Origin: an uncultured Candidatus Binatia bacterium
GTDB taxonomy: Bacteria; Desulfobacterota; Binatia; UBA9968; CAXXLF01
Reading direction: 5' to 3'
Length of the DNA stretch: 64,000 nucleotides
Assembly (NCBI GenBank): GCA_965218425.1
Contig: OZ244621.1
Coordinates: 1,088,001 to 1,152,000, forward strand
A program made the position numbers and the translations under genes. How positions within the stretch are numbered: position 1 is the first letter of the stretch; every line of letters starts with the position of its first letter. This document shows positions 9,184 through 39,304 of the stretch, piece by piece. Below the pieces are notes generated by a model. The model was not told the DNA's origin. It made no database searches and was given only the letters and a program-made list of their open reading frames with translations.

Positions 9184-10917
9184 CTAGTCACTGACGTTTT
9201 TCAGGCCGAAAAATCGAACTAACAAGGCGACCATCACAATAATAAAGACTACCAAGACGCCGATTACAGTAGCTCTTTCCAACTCAGCAGACATCATGAA
9301 ATCCAACATGAGTAAGGAAAGGGGCCGCGAAGAGGGCGAAGAAAGCAATAGCACAACCGGTATGTCACGAACAGCCGAAACGAAAACCACCAGAGCCGTC
9401 GCCAAAACCGTCGGCAGCATTAATGGGATAACAATCTTGCGGAAAGTACGCATTCCCGAGGCGCCACTCACAAATGAGCTTTCTTCAAGCTCCTTGTCGA
9501 TTTGCATGACGCTGGCTTTGGAAATCTGTGTCCCTAACGGCAGTTCTTTAATTATGATCGCCAAAACAAGTAAATAAAGCGTGCCATAGATCGGTGTTAT
9601 GGCTTTCCCAACCCCTAATGTGGCCCACAGAAGGGCCAAGCTGATCAGTACGCCCGGCAGCGCCCACGGCAGCCAAACGAGAAATTCCAGGATGTGGCGC
9701 CCTCGGAAACGTGACCGAACGATGTTGTAGCCGACAAGCGCATAAAACAGTGCTCCTACCGCACCAGCTCCGACCCCCAAAATTAATGTATTGCGCAATG
9801 AGCGCAATAAAATGGGATCATCAAAGGCGTCCGACCAGTTACTCAGAGTCCACGGTTCGGGGATAGAGAAGTAGCCGAAGACCTTCATAAACGTGCCCAT
9901 AAGCTGCACGACCATCGGCAGGCCGATCATGACAAGTACAAAAGCGGTCGAAAACCCAAAGGTCACCCAACGCCACTTTCCCAACGGTGTAACTCGCGCC
10001 GAGTAGCCGCGCCCCCCCACCGTAGTGTATTCACGCGTCCCGAGGAGGTATCGTTGCAGACGTATCATGGCAAAGACGGCCAGGAGGAACACGCTGCTGA
10101 GCGCCGTGGCAGCATGATAGGCTGGAGGTTCAAAATGAGCATAATCCCAGACGAGAGTGGAGTAGACAAAAATGCCCGCCGGGATACCCAGTATAATTTC
10201 CACTTCTAGCGATTCCAAGCTCTTGATAAAGGCCAGCATCGTGGTCGCCAAAATCGCTGGCATCAGTACCGGCACCGTAATCCGCGCTAGGGTAGCGATA
10301 GTGCTACTACCTGCAACATGGGCTGCTTCCTCCAAAGCTGTATCCAGCGCTTCAAAAGCAGGTGTCAAAAGCAGGAAACGAACAGACGTACTAAACGCGA
10401 GGTGAGCCCATATAATGCCGCTGTACGAGTATATGTTGAACGGTGCGCTCGAGAGCCCAAACCAGTCTATGAGAAGCCGGTTGATGATGCCATAACTTGG
10501 ATCCAACAAAAGAATCCATCCCAATGTCATAGGAAGTAGCGGGAGGAAAAAACCCAGCCATAGCATAAACTGAATAAAGCTTTTGCCTGGCGTATCTGTC
10601 CTTGTGATAACCCAGGCAAAAAAGACCGATAATACAGTCGTGATCCCGACACGGATTACGCCCAAAGTGAGCGTGTTCCAAAGGGCCGGTGGCACGGAAC
10701 GGTCACTAAAGGCCAACCTCCATCCTTCTAAACCCCAAGCGATGGGTTGCCCAGGCTGACTGACCTGGAAACTGCTCAAAAAAAGGAGGCCAATCGGGTA
10801 TGCGGTAAAAAAAGCGATGATGCCCAGGAGGAAGAGAGACCGAACGGTAACGGGATTCAGTCGTACATACGCTTGGAAACTTCTATCTCTGGCGGGCAAG
10901 GCGACCTTGCGGAACAT
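9184..10917 (-). CDS. Fe3+/thiamine-type ABC transporter permease (two TM modules)
   Basis: Hydrophobic, with two EAA loops (LEEAAHVAG, LEESSFVSG). Confidence 0.88.
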   Translation of the reverse strand: MFRKVALPARDRSFQAYVRLNPVTVRSLFLLGIIAFFTAYPIGLLFLSSFQVSQPGQPIAWGLEGWRLAFSDRSVPPALWNTLTLGVIRVGITTVLSVFFAWVITRTDTPGKSFIQFMLWLGFFLPLLPMTLGWILLLDPSYGIINRLLIDWFGLSSAPFNIYSYSGIIWAHLAFSTSVRFLLLTPAFEALDTALEEAAHVAGSSTIATLARITVPVLMPAILATTMLAFIKSLESLEVEIILGIPAGIFVYSTLVWDYAHFEPPAYHAATALSSVFLLAVFAMIRLQRYLLGTREYTTVGGRGYSARVTPLGKWRWVTFGFSTAFVLVMIGLPMVVQLMGTFMKVFGYFSIPEPWTLSNWSDAFDDPILLRSLRNTLILGVGAGAVGALFYALVGYNIVRSRFRGRHILEFLVWLPWALPGVLISLALLWATLGVGKAITPIYGTLYLLVLAIIIKELPLGTQISKASVMQIDKELEESSFVSGASGMRTFRKIVIPLMLPTVLATALVVFVSAVRDIPVVLLLSSPSSRPLSLLMLDFMMSAELERATVIGVLVVFIIVMVALLVRFFGLKNVSD

Positions 10918-11149
10918 TTTCTTAAGACAAAGTTATTAGCAACGAGACTTTAGCCCCACTGGGCTGTCAGCCATTTCTATCAGATGTGGTCTCGACAGTT
11001 CCAGGCCGTCTCCCTTGTAATTCCCGTAAATTTCTCTTGAAGATCCATCCCAGACACTTTACCAATACGCCGGCTGGTTTTTTGGTTTTCAGTGTTTTTG
11101 CCTTATTGACCCTGAAATGCGGCTTTAGAAAATAAGCGCGATTGGTCTG

Positions 11150-12241
11150 CTACAAATTGTAGAAGCTCCTCGGGTTGTCAGACAGAATCTTGTCTGTGAG
11201 ACTAGCTGGAATGTCCTCACGAGACTTCATTGCAGCGACGAGGTCACGTTCCTCCGAAGGATCGTTATGGGCGTAATCGGACCCGATCAGGAGATTATCG
11301 TCACCCACGTACTTAGCGAGATATCCAACATCCTCGTCCGCCTCGCAGGCCACGTAAATTCTGCTCTTTTGGAACAGCTCTGGGCTCGAAAGCTCGGCCC
11401 ATCTATCTCGCGACCCCCGTCTTAAAGCGTGGAGCAAAAACGGCAGCCATCCCGCAGAGGCTTCTATGAAGCCAAATCTCAATGTGGGGAAAAGTTCAGG
11501 TATCCGATTGGCCACAAGGTTCCTGAAAGCCATTAGAGGAAGCAGTCGCCCGTGGCAGAACACCGCGTGCCGGTCAACATTGAATAAGCTCGACATTGTC
11601 GGCGAGCCTGCCCCGGTATGGATACAAATAGACAGGTCGTGGTCCATTGCCGCTTGGTAAACCGGGAAAAAATAAGGGTCATCCAAATTGAGATCCTTCT
11701 CCAACCCGCGGAAAAAGATTCCAACCGCGCTATGTTCCTTGGCCCATCTCATTTCTTTGATGGACTCGCCAATAGACCGCAGCGGTAAGACCGCAACCCA
11801 CCTTAGGCGATCCCCGCCTTTGGAGCAGGCCTCGCTCATAAATCGGTTGTAAGCTCTGCACAAGGCGATTTCCAAACTCAAATCATCCGTCAGGTAAACC
11901 AGAAACAGCGTAGGATAAATCACCTGGATATCGACCTTTAGCCGATCCATGTCCTTTAGACGTAAAGCCGGATCCGTAAGCTCACGCGATTCAATAGAAG
12001 GATCTTTTCTCGATGACTGCTGTTTCGATGCAGAAGGAGTGATCAACCTGTTTCCCGCTTTGCCAGCCGGTTTGGGAACGATGTTCCCATCGATGAGCCA
12101 GAAGGCATTGCTCGATTTATAAACCGTATCATCGGGAACACGCATTAGAATGGGTCGCTGAGGGTGCACTTCCTTTTCTAATAGCGCCCACATGTGCTCC
12201 GATTCTGCGACATGAGTATCAGCATCGACGATCGGTCCCAT
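11150..12241 (-). CDS. Amidohydrolase_2 family protein
   Basis: VDADTH, IHTG, FIEA and GSDYAH motifs. Confidence 0.85.
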   Translation of the reverse strand: MGPIVDADTHVAESEHMWALLEKEVHPQRPILMRVPDDTVYKSSNAFWLIDGNIVPKPAGKAGNRLITPSASKQQSSRKDPSIESRELTDPALRLKDMDRLKVDIQVIYPTLFLVYLTDDLSLEIALCRAYNRFMSEACSKGGDRLRWVAVLPLRSIGESIKEMRWAKEHSAVGIFFRGLEKDLNLDDPYFFPVYQAAMDHDLSICIHTGAGSPTMSSLFNVDRHAVFCHGRLLPLMAFRNLVANRIPELFPTLRFGFIEASAGWLPFLLHALRRGSRDRWAELSSPELFQKSRIYVACEADEDVGYLAKYVGDDNLLIGSDYAHNDPSEERDLVAAMKSREDIPASLTDKILSDNPRSFYNL

Positions 12242-12305
12242 TGAATCTCCTCCTCTACGGCTCTAAACCATCCGAAAGTGGTCCCTGGATATAACGTGAC
12301 ACTTT

Positions 12306-13421
12306 TCAATTCCTTCGGTATATCGATCTAAGATACTTTACTAATTCCCCTCCAGGTCCCCGAGTCTTAAGTGCTTCTGGCTTGTCGACCCAGAAATAAC
12401 TTTGCCCCGGTTGCGGCACGAAACAAGGAGGGATCTTGGAAGGCACATCGAGTCTCCGGCTGCTCGTGTCACCCGCGTGGCTGAAAAGCTGTTGCCCCTC
12501 TTTGCCCAATAGCCAATTTAAATATAACAGTGCCGCGTTGGGGTGCGGCGCTTTGGTCAACATCCCGACGCCACCACCACCTACGGAAAGCCACTGTCCA
12601 TCTTCAACGCAGCGGTGTTCTAAAGGGACGCCTTTCGACTTGAGCTCAATAATTGGACGCGGGTTGGGACCTGGCAATAACGAGTAGCGCCCATTGACGA
12701 GCCAATCGGCCGCCTGCCTTATGTTTCTAGTGAAAATGATCTCCTGCTCTTCAACGAGTTTTTTGATAAAGCCGGGCCCGAAGCCAAATTGCTTGCCCAT
12801 GTACAGATAAGTAAAGAGCCCCTGGCCCGCGCCAGCGACCCTCGGATCATCCGAGACGATCTTTCCTTTGTATTTCGGCCTGAGCAAGTCTTGGTATGAA
12901 GTCAACTCGCCACTTTTGACAACTTGGGGGTTCACCGCAAGTCCCCCATAGAGCCTAGAGGAATGGGCAAAGAACCGGCGGTTATTGGAATTCTGCCACA
13001 AGAAGCCGTTCAGCCATTTTTTGGGGTCTTTCACCTCCGGATGAATCAAAGCGGGTTCCAATGGTTCAAAGAGTTTACGAATATCGAGACCCGTTATGCT
13101 CCCGAATCCAGAGATCCACAGATCAACCTTATACAATCCCGCCCTTCGTTGCGTCAAAATTTTGTTCCTGTGGCTCGAACCACGCCCCCCCTCGTATTCC
13201 ACCCTTATTCCGTACCGGGACTGGAAGGGTTTTGTCATCGCTCTCCTGACGCTCGCCGTTCCTGGTCCAGATACATTAACGCTCCCTTCCTTCTTAGCTT
13301 TGGCCACGATAGAATCCCAAGAGCCGAATGAGGCGGCATGGCTCGGGAACCACACGCCGGGACCCAGCACGAGAATCATGACAGAAGCAGACACGAGTAT
13401 TAGACGACCAATAGTTTTCAT
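12306..13421 (-). CDS. ABC substrate-binding protein (Fe3+/AfuA-like)
   Basis: Signal peptide; AKKEG, YQDLL.PKYKGKI and APHPNAALLYLNWLL motifs; GGAGG RBS. Confidence 0.85.
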   Translation of the reverse strand: MKTIGRLILVSASVMILVLGPGVWFPSHAASFGSWDSIVAKAKKEGSVNVSGPGTASVRRAMTKPFQSRYGIRVEYEGGRGSSHRNKILTQRRAGLYKVDLWISGFGSITGLDIRKLFEPLEPALIHPEVKDPKKWLNGFLWQNSNNRRFFAHSSRLYGGLAVNPQVVKSGELTSYQDLLRPKYKGKIVSDDPRVAGAGQGLFTYLYMGKQFGFGPGFIKKLVEEQEIIFTRNIRQAADWLVNGRYSLLPGPNPRPIIELKSKGVPLEHRCVEDGQWLSVGGGGVGMLTKAPHPNAALLYLNWLLGKEGQQLFSHAGDTSSRRLDVPSKIPPCFVPQPGQSYFWVDKPEALKTRGPGGELVKYLRSIYRRN

Positions 13422-13594
13422 GGTACTCCTCCCGCTTAAGGTTTTCTGTACCCTCCTAGCAAGCTCGGTAACGGGTCTTGCTAATCCACAGAATCCGTCG
13501 TGTCCAATGGCAATCAAGGTATGACCCACCTCCGGCTGCGACCATCGAGCCACAACCAACGTCAGTTACCACCGCCTGCTGTTATTTCCAAAAT

Positions 13595-15160
13595 CTATTT
13601 CTTATCCAGCCATGTGTAATTCAGCCCACCGCCATAGTGACGGAAGTGACCTTCACTATCTGTAGTAAATCCCTTCACGTGTTCCCTGAACATGAACAAG
13701 CGAGGAGTAAACCCTATAGGTATATCCGGTACGTCTTCAATCACTCTTATTACAATTTTTCGAAAGAGTTCCTTCCGCTTCTCGGGATCCAACTCGAGCT
13801 CAGCCTGTCTGATCAAACCGTCCATCTCCTTGTTGCAGTAGCCTGATGTATTGGTAGTTCGCTTTTTCAGATCAGGTTCACATACAAACTCGGGTCCATA
13901 GGTAGGTGACGGATCGGGATCATATGAACCCCCGGAGAACCTCATGGAGTAATCGCCTGAGCGTTGGCTCGCCACATAGGCGCCGTAGTCGACCACCTGG
14001 AGGTCAATCTTCATACCAATCTGTTTAAGCTGGTGCTGAAGCGTAGCCCCTTCCGTTTCCATGTCTTCACCCTGGCGACCCGTGAGTTTGATCGGTTCCC
14101 CCTTATAGCCAGATTCTCTCAGAAGGGCTTTGGCCTTTTCGATATCCCGCTTCGGTGAAGGTATTCCATCGATATACCAGGCATGCCCCTTGGGGTATAG
14201 CTGGTCTGTAACTTCCCCAAACCCAAAGTATGCCGCGTGTAGGATTTCCTCTTTATTGATAGCATGGGCTATGGCCTCGCGCAGCTTTTTGTCGTTGAAA
14301 GGCGGCGCCGCCACATTGAATTCGAGATGGCGGTAACCCGCATGGGTGGCCTGGACATATTGAACTCCTTTGATCTTGCCCTGAACCACCAGCTTCACCC
14401 ACTCGTAGGGAGCCCGCTCGATAATATCCACGTCTCCCGCGCGTAGAGCCGTGAAGCGCACGGTGGAATTAGCGATGGGCCTGATCACGAGCCTGTCGAT
14501 GTAGGCCTTATGCCCCCAGTAACCATCATAGCGCTCCAGTACAAGCTTCTGACGGGGCCGCCACTCGACGAACTTGAACGGCCCGGTACCGGGAGGAAAC
14601 GATACGGGCTTGGCAATACCTTCTTCAACTGATTCTTTGGGAATGACGGAAAAGGTGCGGATGTCTGCAAGCAAAGAGAGAAACCCCGGGCTGGCTTTTT
14701 TCAGATAAATCTTCAGCGTATGTTTATCTACGCTTTCTGCCCGTTCAACCAAGGCGAGCCGGCTATAACCGTAGGCCCCATTCTTAGGATTCTTCGTGTA
14801 GTCGATGGCAAACTTAGCGTCATCCGCCGTCATTTTCTGGCCGTCGTGAAATTTGACTCCTTTTTGCAGGCGGATGGTATATATTCTGCCGTCCTTCGAG
14901 ATTTTCCACGACTCAGCGAGATTCGGACGGACGTTCCCCTTCAAGTCCATCGCCAGAAGCGCCTCATACATGAGGTCGCGAAGAGACTTATCGGTGGATG
15001 ATGTTCTGACCAGAGGATTCATCATGGTCAGATCCTTTCGAGTTGTAAAGGTAAGCGTACCTCCACGCTTGGGTTGATCTTGAGCGTCACCCACCTGAGG
15101 TGCAGCGAATAAGAGTAAGAAGGTAAAAGCAGATCCTGCAACAAATTTCCATTGTTTCAT
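13595..15160 (-). CDS. Peptide/nickel ABC substrate-binding protein (family 5)
   Basis: PNLAESW, GVKFHDG and GTGPFK motifs; signal peptide. Confidence 0.9.
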   Translation of the reverse strand: MKQWKFVAGSAFTFLLLFAAPQVGDAQDQPKRGGTLTFTTRKDLTMMNPLVRTSSTDKSLRDLMYEALLAMDLKGNVRPNLAESWKISKDGRIYTIRLQKGVKFHDGQKMTADDAKFAIDYTKNPKNGAYGYSRLALVERAESVDKHTLKIYLKKASPGFLSLLADIRTFSVIPKESVEEGIAKPVSFPPGTGPFKFVEWRPRQKLVLERYDGYWGHKAYIDRLVIRPIANSTVRFTALRAGDVDIIERAPYEWVKLVVQGKIKGVQYVQATHAGYRHLEFNVAAPPFNDKKLREAIAHAINKEEILHAAYFGFGEVTDQLYPKGHAWYIDGIPSPKRDIEKAKALLRESGYKGEPIKLTGRQGEDMETEGATLQHQLKQIGMKIDLQVVDYGAYVASQRSGDYSMRFSGGSYDPDPSPTYGPEFVCEPDLKKRTTNTSGYCNKEMDGLIRQAELELDPEKRKELFRKIVIRVIEDVPDIPIGFTPRLFMFREHVKGFTTDSEGHFRHYGGGLNYTWLDKK

Positions 15161-36030: not shown

Positions 36031-36970
36031 ATGGCAACCATCGGATTTATCGGTACGGGGGGAATGGGAAGTGAAATGGCGACCAACCTCATAAAGGCAG
36101 GTCAGCATCTCGTCGTAAATGATATCAGACCTGAAATGACCCGGCGGCTCGCCGACCAGGGCGCTCAGACACGGGGCTCCGCCCGGGAAGTGGCGGAGGC
36201 CACGGAAGTGGTTTTATCGATGCTTCCTTACAATGAAGCGGTGTCGGAGGTTGGAACAGGTCGAGGAGGCCTCCACGAAGCCTCTGGGGGGGCACGGATA
36301 TGGGTGGACTTCAGCAGTACCAACAAAATGACTATCGTTGACGCCGGTAAGAAACTGACCGCCAAGGGCTGGACCATGCTCGACGGCTCGGTGGCGGGAG
36401 TTGAGGAACAGGCCGCCGCGGCAGCACTGTCCATTTGGGTGTCGGGTTCGAAGCGGCATTTCGATGATCTAATGCCAACGTTCCAGGCCATGGGCAAGAA
36501 AATTGTTTTTATTAGGTGACCTGGGCAATGCAAAGCTAGTCAAGACGGCCAATGCCATGCTCGGGGCCATCTCGAACATGTGTATGGCGGAGATCTTTTA
36601 CTGGCTCAAAAAGGGTGGTCTCACGGATGAGGACTTCCAAAGTTTTATCAAGAGCTCGCAGAACTACTCCACCGCCCTCGACCGGATCACCCAGATCATG
36701 ATCGGCCGGAAGTTCAAACCCAGAAAGTCATGGATGCCCAAAGATGTGGGATTTGGCCTCGACGAGGCACGGGCGATGGAGGTCCCGGTGCCCTTTAGTT
36801 CCCTGGCCTACCAGATGTTCACCCTGGCTCAGGCCAACGGCGTCGACGGGTATTGCCTTCGAGGTCTATTCCCTTATGAATGGCGAGGGCAAGACAGAGA
36901 AGTAGGCCCGACCATTAGAGAACCAATTTTTTTCGCGCTAAGACGCCAAGCTCCCAAAGGGAACCAGTAG
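36031..36970 (+). pseudogene. 3-hydroxyisobutyrate dehydrogenase-family oxidoreductase, frameshifted
   Basis: IGFIGTGGMG N-domain stops at 36519. The C-domain (GDLGNAKLVKTAN...MPKDV) continues in another frame after ~36510. The tail after ANGVDGY looks unrelated. Confidence 0.8.
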
Positions 36971-37289
36971 GCAGATAGCAACAAGCGGCTTGCAGAAAAC
37001 AGTGAACCCAGATTTAGTGTTCAAGGGTCAGGCTAGGGTGTAGGGGGTTGGGGGTTGGGTATGGGGTTTACAGTCTGGAATTCACCTCCCCCTACACTCT
37101 ACACCCTTCATCCTCCCTTAGTTCCCACTTAGTCCTCGTTACTCGCCACTGATTGGACGCTTTGCGCATAGCGCCATACGTTCCGCCGTTCCCGACTTGA
37201 CGCTCTTTGCGTCTTTGCGCGAGTCGCCTTGATGAATACTGAAATAATATCGTCTGAGAGCATTATAACCAGAGGGCTCTGTTAACGCA

Positions 37290-37895
37290 CTAAAAATATC
37301 GATTTGGGCAACAGCCCGGCAAGACCCCATCTCCGGCGGATGCTATGTGCGGTTCATCCCCACGCTCGTGGGGAACACGCTTTACCGGCGCCCGCTGAGC
37401 CACCTGGGTGATACAGGCTTCCTTCGGTTGACCAAGACGTAAATTGCGTCCCGATGGTTGCCTCAAGTCTACTTGATAGCAGCTCTTACCTGTCCTGCCT
37501 CTGAGACGGAGACGCACCCTTCGGGTCATTCGCCTCCCGGCGGCAAGTCCTCTCACGCGCACTCGTTTCACCACGGCCCGCCCGCGTCTGACAGGGATCT
37601 CGAAGCGACCACTCGCCTCGGAACCGGAGTTTTTCACTGAAACCTGAACGGTTGCCGTAGCGCCCATCGGCCGAGAAGAAGAAGCAAACCAAGCCCTTAC
37701 GATTTCTATTCGAGTGGCGGTTGGGCTGATGTCCGACCGAAGGGGTTTAAGAGTCTGCCGCGAAGACTGAGCCGGCATTGGGGCCCATTGAGCTTTTGAT
37801 GGGTCCATCTCACCCTGAGCAAGGAGCGCACTTCGAAATTGGCCTGCGAACCATAGGCTCGCCATCAGGACTAAACCGACAATGATCGCTTTCAT
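37290..37895 (-). CDS. Secreted protein with CARDB/Ig-like segment, C-terminus formed by a CRISPR repeat
   Basis: Signal peptide and VSVKNSG motif. Residues RVPHERGDEP are the translation of the repeat. Confidence 0.55.
   Translation of the reverse strand: MKAIIVGLVLMASLWFAGQFRSALLAQGEMDPSKAQWAPMPAQSSRQTLKPLRSDISPTATRIEIVRAWFASSSRPMGATATVQVSVKNSGSEASGRFEIPVRRGRAVVKRVRVRGLAAGRRMTRRVRLRLRGRTGKSCYQVDLRQPSGRNLRLGQPKEACITQVAQRAPVKRVPHERGDEPHIASAGDGVLPGCCPNRYF
37350..37378 (-). CRISPR. Solitary type I-E CRISPR direct repeat (no array)
   Basis: Minus strand GTGTTCCCCACGAGCGTGGGGATGAACCG, 29 nt, with a CCCCACG/CGTGGGG hairpin and an ATGAACCG handle. One copy only. Confidence 0.85.
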
Positions 37896-38029
37896 ATGGT
37901 TCGTTTCCCTTGCTCGGGTTTCAAAAGCTAAAATGCAACCCGTTTACCTGGGGAAAACCAAAATAAAGTGTCTAGCTATACGGAAGGGTACCGCTATGAG
38001 GCAATAGCAGGCGCCTCGTATCTCGCGAC

Positions 38030-39304
38030 TCAGGGCGCCGGCGCCAGCCGCACCGCGGTGGTGGAGGGCTCGTCGGTTGCGTCACCCAAATCACGAGACA
38101 TCACATCGGAACGGGCGAACACCACCGAGATGACAGTTGTGGCGCACAAAACCGCACCCACGATGAGAGTAAGCGGCGCGCCGATGAGGGAGGCCACAGC
38201 CCCCACTTGCATCTGTCCCAGGGAAGGCACGCCGTTGGTCAACATGCTTTGAAAGCTGGAAACCCTGCCGCGAATCTCATCCGGGGTGATGGCCTGGATT
38301 ACCGTATTGCGCGGAATGGCCTGCACGGAATCGGAGAACCCGAGGGACGCGCTCATCAGGAGCGCAAGCGCAAACCAGGGAGCAACTGCCAAGCCCACGA
38401 GACCGAAACAGTAAGCGAGTATGCCAATGAGCACGAAACGGCCCTTGTAGCGCACATCGCCCAGGGACATGATCACGCCAGCCCCTAGAATGGCCCCCAC
38501 CCCGGATATGGAAAGTAGCAGTCCAAGTCCTTCGGCCCCGGCACCCAGCTTATCGGCAAAGATGGGCATCAGGACTCGATAGGCTCCGAAGAACATCGCC
38601 GCCGAATCCATACCCAGTAGGATCGGGATGATGGATTGCTTTCTTAGAAACGTCATTCCTTCCGCCAGTGCTTTCAGTGTAGACTTCCGCGATGGCGCAA
38701 TCACCCGGCTGAGATGCATGGCCATGAGGGCTGCGAGGGTAACGAGATGAGCCATGCCGTTCACCAGGTAGGTTACGGATAACCCGAAGAGACCTATGCA
38801 AACACCTCCTATGGCCGGGCCGAGGATATTGGAAATCTGCCAGACCGTGGAATTGAGCGCGAACGCGTTCAGCAAGTTCTGCTTGGGAACGATATTTGGG
38901 ATGATGGCGCTTCGCGCCGGCGCATTTAGGGCCGTCAGGGAGGAGTTGAGAAATGTTACGGCGTAGATATGCCAGACCTGGATATCCCCGGTGAAAGTGA
39001 GCCAGGCAAGGACTAGACTGAAGCAGCCTGAAAGTCCCTGGGTAACCATAATGAACTTTCGCCGGTCAACCCGGTCGGCGATGACCCCGCCCATGAGCGA
39101 CAAGGCAAGAATTGGCAGTGCCCTCACCAATCCGGTGAGGCCCAGATAGAAGGCAGAGCCCGTCAATTGGTAGATCTGCCAGATATTGGCAGTGTTCTGC
39201 ACCTGGGAACCCAACCCCGCAACCACCAGCGCGACGTAAAACAGCCGGAAATCCCGATGCCTTAGAGCAGCAATGGGCAGGATGATTTTGGAGCGGAGAT
39301 CCAT
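38030..39304 (-). CDS. MFS transporter (EntS/MFS_3-like), paralog of 16720-17961
   Basis: ALRHRDFR, GGVIADRVDRRK, PDEIRGRV. Confidence 0.88.
   Translation of the reverse strand: MDLRSKIILPIAALRHRDFRLFYVALVVAGLGSQVQNTANIWQIYQLTGSAFYLGLTGLVRALPILALSLMGGVIADRVDRRKFIMVTQGLSGCFSLVLAWLTFTGDIQVWHIYAVTFLNSSLTALNAPARSAIIPNIVPKQNLLNAFALNSTVWQISNILGPAIGGVCIGLFGLSVTYLVNGMAHLVTLAALMAMHLSRVIAPSRKSTLKALAEGMTFLRKQSIIPILLGMDSAAMFFGAYRVLMPIFADKLGAGAEGLGLLLSISGVGAILGAGVIMSLGDVRYKGRFVLIGILAYCFGLVGLAVAPWFALALLMSASLGFSDSVQAIPRNTVIQAITPDEIRGRVSSFQSMLTNGVPSLGQMQVGAVASLIGAPLTLIVGAVLCATTVISVVFARSDVMSRDLGDATDEPSTTAVRLAPAP

What the first reader, a model, noticed from the sequence alone, without database searches (positions are those of the whole stretch)
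37290..37400. Solitary type I-E CRISPR repeat fused into a secreted-protein gene, followed by a spacer-length segment and a short hairpin
Seen: one full 29-nt repeat GTGTTCCCCACGAGCGTGGGGATGAACCG (minus, 37378-37350), in the sense orientation of the gene, with no second copy and no cas genes in 64 kb. It is read in frame as RVPHERGDEP. It is followed by 32 nt (CACATAGCATCCGCCGGAGATGGGGTCTTGCC) and then GGGC-TGTT-GCCC, a small hairpin. Offset by 3 nt, CTGTTGCCCA matches the repeat start at 8 of 10 positions. Established: Cas6e cuts this repeat type leaving the 8-nt handle ATGAACCG; solitary repeat units can yield crRNA mimics (Racr anti-CRISPRs, Cascade-guided regulatory RNAs). Inference, alternatives: (a) a crRNA-like RNA cut out of an mRNA 3' end; (b) a Cas6 site processing this mRNA; (c) the scar of a deletion that removed an array plus cas locus and truncated the gene; (d) ectopic integration or misassembly.
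Basis: partly seen in the sequence, partly recalled or inferred. Interest (0 to 1): 0.72.

Follow-up and report, generated by a model that had tools for sequence, protein, structure and literature searches.

The report
Dead CRISPR repeat beside transposon scrap
A single, perfectly preserved CRISPR repeat sits where a secreted-protein gene was broken off, next to a scrap of a jumping gene; it looks like leftover debris of a lost immune system rather than a working RNA device.

Summary
The 29-nt type I-E repeat is real, exact and unique in the window (37350-37378, minus). It is read in frame as the tail of a 201-aa ORF. That ORF is a truncated CARDB secreted-protein gene: homologues are 567-572 aa, and similarity stops at K172, one base before the repeat.

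The "short hairpin / degenerate repeat" after the 32-nt segment is the terminal inverted repeat of a multicopy IS5/IS1182-like insertion sequence. Only 64 nt of it remain (37254-37317). The last 11 nt of the "spacer" fit a motif that commonly precedes this IS end.

A paralogous relic lies at 2.864 Mb in a defence island. It carries the same repeat, a 26/32-identical segment and a decayed IS end.

No I-E cas gene was found in the 4.46-Mb genome. The cas systems found are two type I-MYXAN loci and a decayed I-C locus. Contigs from three studies span the junction, so it is not a misassembly. No self-target and no promoter-like site were found.

Verdict: a non-functional I-E array fragment, joined to IS debris at a rearrangement breakpoint. 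A crRNA-like or Cas6e-processed RNA is not supported. Low interest.

The parts
37380..37895 (-). Native part of a truncated CARDB-domain secreted-protein gene (residues 1-172: signal peptide plus first CARDB domain).
   Evidence: Pfam PF07705 CARDB, E 8.6e-7. Seven homologue clusters of 567-572 aa, 63-68% identical over the first ~172-179 residues. Similarity ends at K172. No tblastn match to the missing C-terminal part anywhere in the genome.
37290..37379 (-). Non-native 29-residue tail plus stop codon of the ORF (RVPHERGDEPHIASAGDGVLPGCCPNRYF*). It is read from the CRISPR repeat, the 32-nt segment and the IS end.
   Evidence: No homologue shares this tail, apart from the same-species variant P0001.
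37350..37378 (-). One complete type I-E CRISPR repeat with a 7-bp stem, a 4-nt loop and the 3' handle ATGAACCG.
   Evidence: hairpin in the MFE fold. I-E identity and orientation come from arrays next to I-E cas operons.
37329..37349 (-). 21 nt of unknown origin (CACATAGCATCCGCCGGAGAT), probably what is left of a spacer.
   Evidence: Shared with the 2.864-Mb relic. No other match in the genome at <=8 mismatches. No informative match in viral contigs, metagenomes, genomes, phages or plasmids.
37318..37328 (-). GGGGTCTTGCC: fits the motif that directly precedes this IS family's inverted repeat. It is either a preferred target or an outer part of the IS end.
   Evidence: The motif GGGGTC-N0-6-TT[GT][CT]C sits directly before the inverted repeat at 6 of 25 typed IS ends, the window's included, against 1e-5 of random 20-mers (criterion chosen after seeing the data). 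Similar flanks occur at 5 of 7 ends in relatives.
37254..37317 (-). First 64 nt (left inverted repeat GGGCTGTTGCCCAAA... and adjoining bases) of a ~1.62-kb IS5/IS1182-like insertion sequence. The rest of the element is missing.
   Evidence: 95.3% identical to bases 1-64 of the full copies. There are four full copies, one internally deleted copy and many solo ends in the genome. The transposase carries DUF772 + DDE_Tnp_1. Sequencing-run contigs branch off at 37254, 37264, 37318 and 37325.
36971..37253 (.). Non-coding filler between the IS scrap and the convergent dehydrogenase gene. It holds a long imperfect palindrome (about 37029-37109) and a short motif with dozens of partial copies in the genome.
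   Evidence: only spurious miRNA-model hits on the palindrome; many 16-30-nt matches elsewhere.

Best explanation
This is a non-functional relic: one repeat and a partial spacer of a type I-E CRISPR array that the genome no longer supports. It is fused on one side to a 64-nt scrap of an insertion-sequence end and on the other to codon 172 of a CARDB secreted-protein gene.

Shown:
- the repeat is a true I-E repeat;
- the gene is truncated at its 5' edge;
- the downstream 'hairpin' is an IS inverted repeat;
- a diverged copy of the same repeat / 32-nt segment / IS-end junction exists at 2.864 Mb, behind a second, degenerate I-E repeat, in a defence island;
- no I-E cas genes were found.

Inferred history:
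1. An IS of this family inserted into an I-E array.
2. The repeat-spacer-IS junction was then copied or moved by IS-linked recombination or transposition into the CARDB gene.
3. Later deletions removed the rest of the IS and the 3' 70% of the gene.

The repeat is translated only because the broken reading frame runs on to the next stop. No Cas6e processing and no guide function are expected.
For: - Repeat exact and unique in the window.
- I-E identity and orientation.
- Homologues are 567-572 aa and similarity stops at K172, 1 nt before the repeat. The missing part is absent from the genome.
- IS end. Motif before the IS end.
- Second relic with 27/29 repeat identity and 26/32 segment identity (all six differences are transitions) plus a degenerate IS end. 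It lies after type III restriction-modification genes and a ParE fragment.
- No Cas6e or Cas7e Pfam hit. The only Cas1 genes are type I-MYXAN Cas4-Cas1 fusions.
- tblastn with eight I-E Cas proteins gave only Cas3-helicase hits to resident loci.
- 0 of 60 same-order relatives hold the repeat.
- No other genomic match to the 32-nt segment at <=8 mismatches.
- No promoter-like or terminator-like site in 36900-38100.
- Junction spanned by contigs from three studies, one of them a strain variant (V102I = P0001) with the same tail.
- The genome shows other CRISPR decay: an I-C locus with truncated Cas3 and Cas4 beside an IS3 fragment, and stray I-C repeats.
Against: - The window's repeat is flawless, stem included, while its paralogue has decayed. 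That is unexpected for old neutral DNA, although 29 nt carry little weight.
- The gene-repeat junction falls within 1 nt of the repeat's first base, which a random breakpoint would do only about 1 time in 20. The model does not explain this.
- The same sequencing runs hold many contigs of >=90%-alike repeats with varied 26-33-nt spacers. An active I-E system therefore exists in those samples and its owner is unknown. The genome held is one contig, and a plasmid could be missing.
- The PF08798 control did not ring in E. coli, so that search alone is weak.
- The order of events and the route of relocation are inferred, not shown.
Confidence: 0.75

Rival explanations
1. In-situ deletion scar. A complete I-E CRISPR-Cas locus once lay downstream of the CARDB gene at this site. 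One or more deletions removed the 3' part of the gene, the cas operon, the leader and nearly all of the array, leaving one repeat unit.
For: The gene is truncated at the repeat. Synteny downstream of the gene differs from the related contig L019, whereas the upstream MFS gene is 92% identical. The intergenic stretch is full of mobile-element debris.
Against: - The same repeat / 32-nt segment / IS-end junction occurs at 2.864 Mb next to a further I-E repeat. At least one copy was therefore moved or duplicated.
- No cas pseudogene fragment was found here or anywhere in the genome.
- L019 has the intact gene with no CRISPR.
- 0 of 60 same-order relatives have the repeat.
Confidence: 0.15
2. Functional RNA. 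The repeat at the 3' end of the truncated mRNA is cut by a Cas6e supplied in trans (an unassembled plasmid or an incoming element). It then acts as a repeat decoy (Racr-like) or yields a crRNA-like guide from the following 32 nt.
For: The repeat is intact, has a perfect stem and lies in sense orientation within a transcribable ORF. Arrays with >=90%-alike repeats are present in the same sequencing runs.
Against: - No I-E cas genes in the genome.
- No second repeat to give the 3' hairpin of a mature I-E crRNA. An IS end lies where it would be.
- No target at <=8 mismatches and no own promoter-like site.
- The site is not on a phage or plasmid.
- The ratio of array depth to chromosome depth varies between runs (about 1.6, 0.35 and 0.6), which suggests another owner.
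- The paralogue has decayed.
Confidence: 0.05
3. Assembly chimera or chance look-alike.
For: None, beyond the oddity of a lone repeat inside an ORF.
Against: - Contigs of 17.7 kb (0 differences) and 24.3 kb (1 difference), and a 390-nt contig covering 37222-37611 (0 differences), from three studies span the junction. One of these may be the source of the assembly.
- A strain variant has the same 201-aa product.
- 0 of 100 shuffles gave a match at <=3 mismatches.
Confidence: 0.01

Closest known systems
Orphan or degenerate CRISPR arrays left after loss of cas genes (reviewed in PMC8616872, passages read; it cites Shmakov et al. 2020 and Pourcel 2020, which I did not read)
   Same: CRISPR repeats without cognate cas genes, decayed copies, location in or near defence and mobile DNA.
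   Different: Here only one repeat unit is left at the window site. It is fused to a coding sequence and is translated as the tail of a truncated protein.
Insertion sequences inside CRISPR arrays and cas loci (for example the Shigella I-E case: Chen et al. 2019, seen only in the reference list of PMC8616872)
   Same: An IS end directly abuts I-E array sequence, and IS activity accompanies decay of CRISPR-Cas. In the same genome an IS3 fragment sits next to a truncated I-C cas3.
   Different: The IS itself is reduced to 64 nt, and the repeat / segment / IS junction occurs at two distant loci, so the array fragment travelled with the IS end.
Solitary repeat units / RNA anti-CRISPRs (Racr; Camara-Wilpert et al. 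2023, PMC10651486, passages read)
   Same: A lone, well-preserved repeat with an intact hairpin and no neighbouring cas genes.
   Different: [quoted passage not shown] This one is chromosomal, at the end of an ORF, without a promoter-like site, in a genome where no I-E system was found.
crRNA-like regulatory RNAs (crlRNA preprint 10.1101/2024.12.27.630466, abstract in the search listing only) and CreA of CreTA (recalled, not read here)
   Same: Repeat-like sequence followed by a spacer-length segment outside a normal array.
   Different: By the crlRNA abstract, such RNAs target and repress promoters; that they need a cognate effector is my inference. No I-E effector and no target were found, and the unit is not near cas genes.

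Membership tests
Type I-E CRISPR repeat | 29-nt unit with the I-E consensus, found as arrays of 61-nt period next to I-E cas operons | tested here: met
   An Ideonella plasmid has cas3-casA-casB-cas7e-cas5e-cas6e-cas1e-cas2e followed by 63 copies of a repeat differing at 2 compensatory positions. Arrays at 1-3 mismatches occur in other genomes of the phylum. No Rfam family matched, so the identification rests on these arrays.
Type I-E CRISPR repeat | Stem-loop followed by an 8-nt 3' handle | tested here: met
   A 7-bp stem with a 4-nt loop is predicted. The handle ATGAACCG is present. That Cas6e cuts at the base of the stem is recalled knowledge and was not tested.
Functional CRISPR array | Two or more repeats separated by spacers, with a leader upstream | tested here: not met
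   There is one repeat only. Upstream is coding sequence of the CARDB gene. Downstream, where the next repeat should be, is an IS inverted repeat.
Functional CRISPR array | Cognate cas genes in the genome | tested here: not met
   No hit with PF08798 or PF09344. The Cas1 genes found are of I-MYXAN type only. tblastn with 8 I-E Cas proteins found only resident Cas3 helicases. Caveats: the genome is one contig at 97% completeness, so plasmids may be missing, and the PF08798 control missed E. coli.
Racr / solitary repeat unit of mobile elements | Solitary repeat with no partial repeat within 100 bp | tested here: met
   No other match at <=7 mismatches near it. The 8-of-10 look-alike downstream is the IS end.
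Racr / solitary repeat unit of mobile elements | Encoded on a phage or plasmid, intergenic, downstream of its own promoter | tested here: not met
   The neighbours are chromosomal genes: an MFS transporter and a dehydrogenase. The repeat lies inside the ORF tail. 0 promoter-like sites were found in 36900-38100 (sigma-70 consensus scan only).
Racr / solitary repeat unit of mobile elements | Matches the CRISPR subtype of the host it acts in | tested here: not met
   The systems found in the genome are type I-MYXAN (twice) and a decayed I-C locus; no I-E system was found.
IS5/IS1182-like insertion sequence (end fragment) | Terminal inverted repeats flanking a DDE transposase gene, in multiple copies | tested here: met
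   Four copies of 1622-1623 bp at 99.8-100% identity, with ends GGTCTGTTGCCCAAA / TTTGGGCAACAGACC. The transposase has DUF772 + DDE_Tnp_1. The window holds bases 1-64 at 95.3% identity. The family name is inferred from the Pfam domains; no IS database was available.

The most novel reading that the evidence does not exclude
The insertion sequence itself moves CRISPR units. The start of the I-E repeat (GTGTTCCCCA) matches the core of the IS inverted repeat (CTGTTGCCCA) at 8 of 10 positions. The transposase may therefore have used the repeat as a surrogate left end and transposed 'repeat + spacer + IS' as one piece into the CARDB gene. That would explain why the gene-repeat junction lies within 1 nt of the repeat's first base, and why the same unit occurs at two loci. 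It would be a concrete route by which solitary CRISPR repeats are seeded around chromosomes, including into transcribed genes where an incoming I-E system could meet them.
Probability: 0.08. Interest if true: 0.5.

Novelty: new member of a known kind. Interest (0 to 1): 0.2.

Why it matters
Mostly as a caution. A flawless lone CRISPR repeat inside a gene looks like a regulatory RNA device. Here the context shows ordinary genome decay: a lost I-E system, IS traffic and a truncated surface-protein gene.

It also gives a worked example of how array fragments can hitch-hike with IS ends to new loci. This genome carries relics of two CRISPR types (I-E and I-C) beside two intact I-MYXAN loci. That makes it a small natural record of CRISPR-Cas turnover.

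Tried and rejected
- Rfam at E<=10 over 36500-38500 gave no CRISPR family. It gave only spurious miRNA-model hits on a palindrome at about 37029-37109 and two weak sRNA hits.
- Flank pattern CACATNGCATCCGNCGGANATG in genome contigs: 6 loci, all without a repeat or further similarity, so chance. One pair, L008/L010, reaches 26/32 identity to the 2.864-Mb copy, but 19 of those positions were fixed by the search pattern.
- Junction pattern in metagenome contigs: 0. Segment pattern in viral contigs: 0.
- blastn of the 101-nt unit against plasmids and phages matched the repeat only.
- The exact repeat in viral contigs gave one contig holding an array with duplicated leader pieces and a different flank.
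- The minus-strand ORF through the 2.864-Mb relic (104 aa) has no Pfam family and no paralogue.
- Test of whether this IS inserts into hairpin loops: the reconstructed empty sites of 5 copies fold no better than random 40-mers (mean -3.16 against -3.25 kcal/mol, P 0.51). That idea is dropped. Only the sequence motif before the IS end stands (post hoc).
- A Cas1-Cas2-catalysed joining at the repeat border was considered as the cause of the precise junction. It could not be tested and has no support here.
- No RNA holder was listed among the sequencing runs, so expression could not be examined.
- The conserved ~170-nt element upstream of four IS ends has no Rfam match.
- Earlier notes of this scan: nothing for this genome or this sequence.

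Full report
**Observation.**
- On the minus strand, 37350-37378 reads GTGTTCCCCACGAGCGTGGGGATGAACCG. It is the only match in the window at up to 3 mismatches, and none of 100 shuffles gave a match.
- It lies in frame in ORF 37290-37895(-), 201 aa, and codes RVPHERGDEP.
- Rfam gave no CRISPR family, so I established the repeat's identity from arrays elsewhere. blastn against plasmids hit 17 records, six of them capped at 40 matching pieces, that is, arrays.
- In an Ideonella plasmid the repeat GTGTTCCCCGCGAGCGCGGGGATGAACCG occurs 63 times with a 61-nt period. It differs at two compensatory stem positions. It lies directly after cas3-casA-casB-cas7e-cas5e-cas6e-cas1e-cas2e, in the same orientation as the window's copy.
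- In a sample of 400 other genomes of the phylum, 25 hold the repeat at <=3 mismatches, many as arrays. None of 60 same-order relatives does.
- The predicted RNA fold shows the expected 7-bp stem. The 151-nt region as a whole folds no better than shuffles (z 0.54).

**The gene.**
- The ORF has a signal-peptide-like start and a CARDB domain (PF07705).
- Seven homologue clusters are 567-572 aa long. A 321-aa hit sits on a 1.4-kb contig.
- In the alignment, similarity runs to ...ACITQVAQRAPVK (K172). The window protein then diverges, while all homologues continue KP(T/A)ER(A/V)P... for another 400 residues.
- The K172 codon ends at 37380. One base (c, 37379) follows, and the repeat starts at 37378.
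- The missing C-terminal part has no tblastn match anywhere in the genome.
- A related metagenome contig (L019) has an MFS gene 92% identical to the window's upstream neighbour. The intact 572-aa gene follows it, then unrelated genes, and there is no CRISPR.
- The window gene is therefore a 30% stump. Its last 29 residues are read from foreign DNA.

**What follows the repeat.**
- Bases 33-96 after the repeat (window 37317-37254) match eight or more other places in the genome at 90-97% identity.
- Aligning those places shows an insertion sequence of about 1.62 kb with ends GGTCTGTTGCCCAAA... and ...TTTGGGCAACAGACC. There are four copies at 99.8-100% identity, one internally deleted copy and many solo ends. 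Its transposase has DUF772 and DDE_Tnp_1 domains.
- The window keeps only bases 1-64 of this element, at 95.3% identity.
- The last 11 nt of the 32-nt segment, GGGGTCTTGCC, fit a motif (GGGGTC, 0-6 nt, TT[GT][CT]C) that directly precedes the inverted repeat at 6 of 25 typed ends of this IS family in the genome, the window's included. The rate in random 20-mers is 1e-5 (the criterion was chosen after seeing the data).
- Similar flanks precede 5 of 7 ends in three relatives.
- The flanks differ between near-identical IS copies, and another IS family starts with GGGGTCAAATCTTTT. I therefore read the motif as a preferred target or an IS-family end, not as spacer. Only the first 21 nt remain unexplained.
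- A test of whether the IS prefers hairpin loops was negative (P 0.51).

**A second relic.**
- At genome 2,864,480-2,864,568 lie, in order: a degenerate I-E repeat (6 mismatches), a 31-nt spacer, and a repeat with 2 mismatches.
- Next comes CACATGGCATCCGTCGGAAATGAGATTTTGCC, which is 26/32 identical to the window segment; all six differences are transitions.
- It is followed by GGGCTG and, after a short gap, ATCGAT of the IS end.
- The homology between the two loci begins at the repeat and ends in the IS end.
- Upstream lie a type III restriction-modification pair, an unknown ORF and a ParE fragment.
- 34 nt before the degenerate I-E repeat lies a perfect copy of a different repeat, of type I-C.
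- The repeat / segment / IS junction is therefore older than the duplication that placed it at two loci. The 2.864-Mb site, with more array left, is the likelier source.

**Cas content.**
- No Cas6e or Cas7e Pfam hit was found. The Cas6e control missed E. coli, so I added tblastn with the eight Ideonella I-E proteins. Only the Cas3 helicase matched, at two resident loci; everything else was at chance level.
- Those resident loci are type I-MYXAN: Cas6/Cmx6, Cas3, Cas8a1/Cmx1, Cas7/DevR, Cas5/DevS and a Cas4-Cas1 fusion. Their arrays have 14 and 16 repeats of 36 nt.
- A third locus, of type I-C, has decayed. It has a Cas3 fragment beside an IS3 fragment, whole-looking Cas5c, Cas8c and Cas7c, a truncated Cas4, no Cas1 or Cas2, and two repeats.

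**Assembly.**
- Contigs from three studies span the junction: 17.7 kb with 0 differences, 24.3 kb with 1 difference, and a 390-nt contig covering 37222-37611 with 0 differences. One of these may be the source of the assembly.
- The single difference (37592 C>T) is V102I, which is exactly the variant protein P0001. A second strain therefore has the same tail.
- The same runs hold many short contigs in which >=90%-alike repeats flank different 26-33-nt spacers. The summed depth over 37342-37375 is 1323, 475 and 308, against 6-9 for the chromosome.
- An active I-E-type array is therefore present in those samples. The ratio of array-contig depth to chromosome depth differs between runs (about 1.6, 0.35 and 0.6), which suggests another organism, but the owner is not known.

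**Function.**
- The 32-nt segment has no other match in the genome at <=8 mismatches; five shuffled controls gave 0. It has no match in phages, plasmids or viral contigs.
- No promoter-like or terminator-like site lies in 36900-38100.
- A mature I-E crRNA needs a second repeat for its 3' hairpin (recalled knowledge). An IS end lies where that repeat would be.

**Conclusion.**
- The best reading is a dead fragment of a I-E array, joined to IS debris, at a breakpoint that truncated a surface-protein gene.
- I put 0.75 on this reading and about 0.5 on the specific route by IS-linked relocation from the 2.864-Mb region. I put 0.15 on an in-situ scar of a whole locus, 0.05 on a functional RNA, and about 0.01 on an artefact.
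- Two things remain unexplained: why the gene-repeat junction sits within 1 nt of the repeat's first base, and why the window's repeat is flawless while its paralogue has decayed.
- The boldest reading not excluded is that the transposase used the repeat, whose start resembles the IS inverted-repeat core, as a surrogate end and carried the unit along.

**Comparison with known systems.**
- Orphan and degenerate arrays, and IS elements in CRISPR loci, are established (PMC8616872, passages read).
- Solitary repeat units acting as RNA anti-CRISPRs are described for phages and plasmids whose hosts mostly carry the matching subtype (PMC10651486, passages read). This unit fails those context features.
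- Earlier notes of this scan describe similar junkyard relics in other genomes. I did not test them.

Noticed in passing
outside the window: genome 208,100-212,700 (locus L025 about 10,100-14,700): Decayed type I-C CRISPR-Cas locus. It has a Cas3 fragment of 179 aa next to an IS3 transposase fragment, whole-looking Cas5c, Cas8c and Cas7c, a Cas4 cut to 107 aa, no Cas1 or Cas2, and then a 2-repeat mini-array. A Cascade without a nuclease or an adaptation module could still bind DNA; this was not followed further.
   Followed up: partly
outside the window: genome 2,864,412-2,864,445 (L002 1373-1406) and 2,315,655-2,315,688: Stray type I-C repeats. One is a perfect copy 34 nt upstream of the degenerate I-E repeat, so two array types abut there. 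The other has 3 mismatches and is preceded by a partial repeat end plus 34 nt, directly before a signal-peptide ORF.
   Followed up: partly
outside the window: genome 222-233 kb and 2,765-2,774 kb: Two near-identical type I-MYXAN CRISPR-Cas loci (Cas1 scores 268 bits in both). Their arrays have 14 and 16 repeats of 36 nt and start with the same flank.
   Followed up: partly
window 36031-36970 (+): A 3-hydroxyisobutyrate-dehydrogenase-like gene (NAD_binding_2 + NAD_binding_11) is split into two overlapping ORFs at about 36505-36520, in a T-rich run (GTTTTTATTAGG). This is a one-base frameshift: either a pseudogene or a sequencing error. The runs laid did not cover it.
   Followed up: partly
window about 37029-37109 and 37196-37226: A long imperfect palindrome rich in GGGGG/CCCCC, which gave spurious miRNA-model hits. 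Also a motif CGACTCGCGCAAAGACGCAAAG with dozens of partial copies across the genome, probably a REP- or MITE-like element.
   Followed up: no
outside the window: genome about 233,920-234,090, 236,010-236,180, 2,852,410-2,852,580 and 2,855,600-2,855,770: A conserved element of about 170 nt with several GC-rich hairpins. It sits directly before IS ends of two different kinds at four sites. No Rfam match.
   Followed up: partly
outside the window: for example genome 691,354, 731,996, 1,930,932, 2,758,532: Another multicopy element with the end GGGGTCAAATCTTTTGTTGACAAATAAC (14 or more copies). Its first 15 nt equal the motif found before the ends of the IS studied here, which suggests nested insertions or related IS ends.
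   Followed up: partly
sequencing runs X1, X3, X5 laid on window 37342-37380: Many contigs carry >=90%-alike I-E repeats with different 26-33-nt spacers and AT-rich leader-like ends. An active I-E array of unknown owner is present in the same samples.
   Followed up: partly
L024 (G138:C53:29577-29605): Another apparently solitary I-E repeat (GTGTTTCCCACAGGCGTGGGGATGAACCG) in a different genome of the phylum, with no second copy at <=8 mismatches within 1.5 kb on either side.
   Followed up: no
L013 (viral contig, 1001-1200): The exact repeat occurs in an array whose leader end (AAAAGCATGCTTTTAAATGCGCGGTATCCTGCACCAG) is duplicated inside the array after a truncated repeat. This is either a rearranged array or an assembly artefact.
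   Followed up: no
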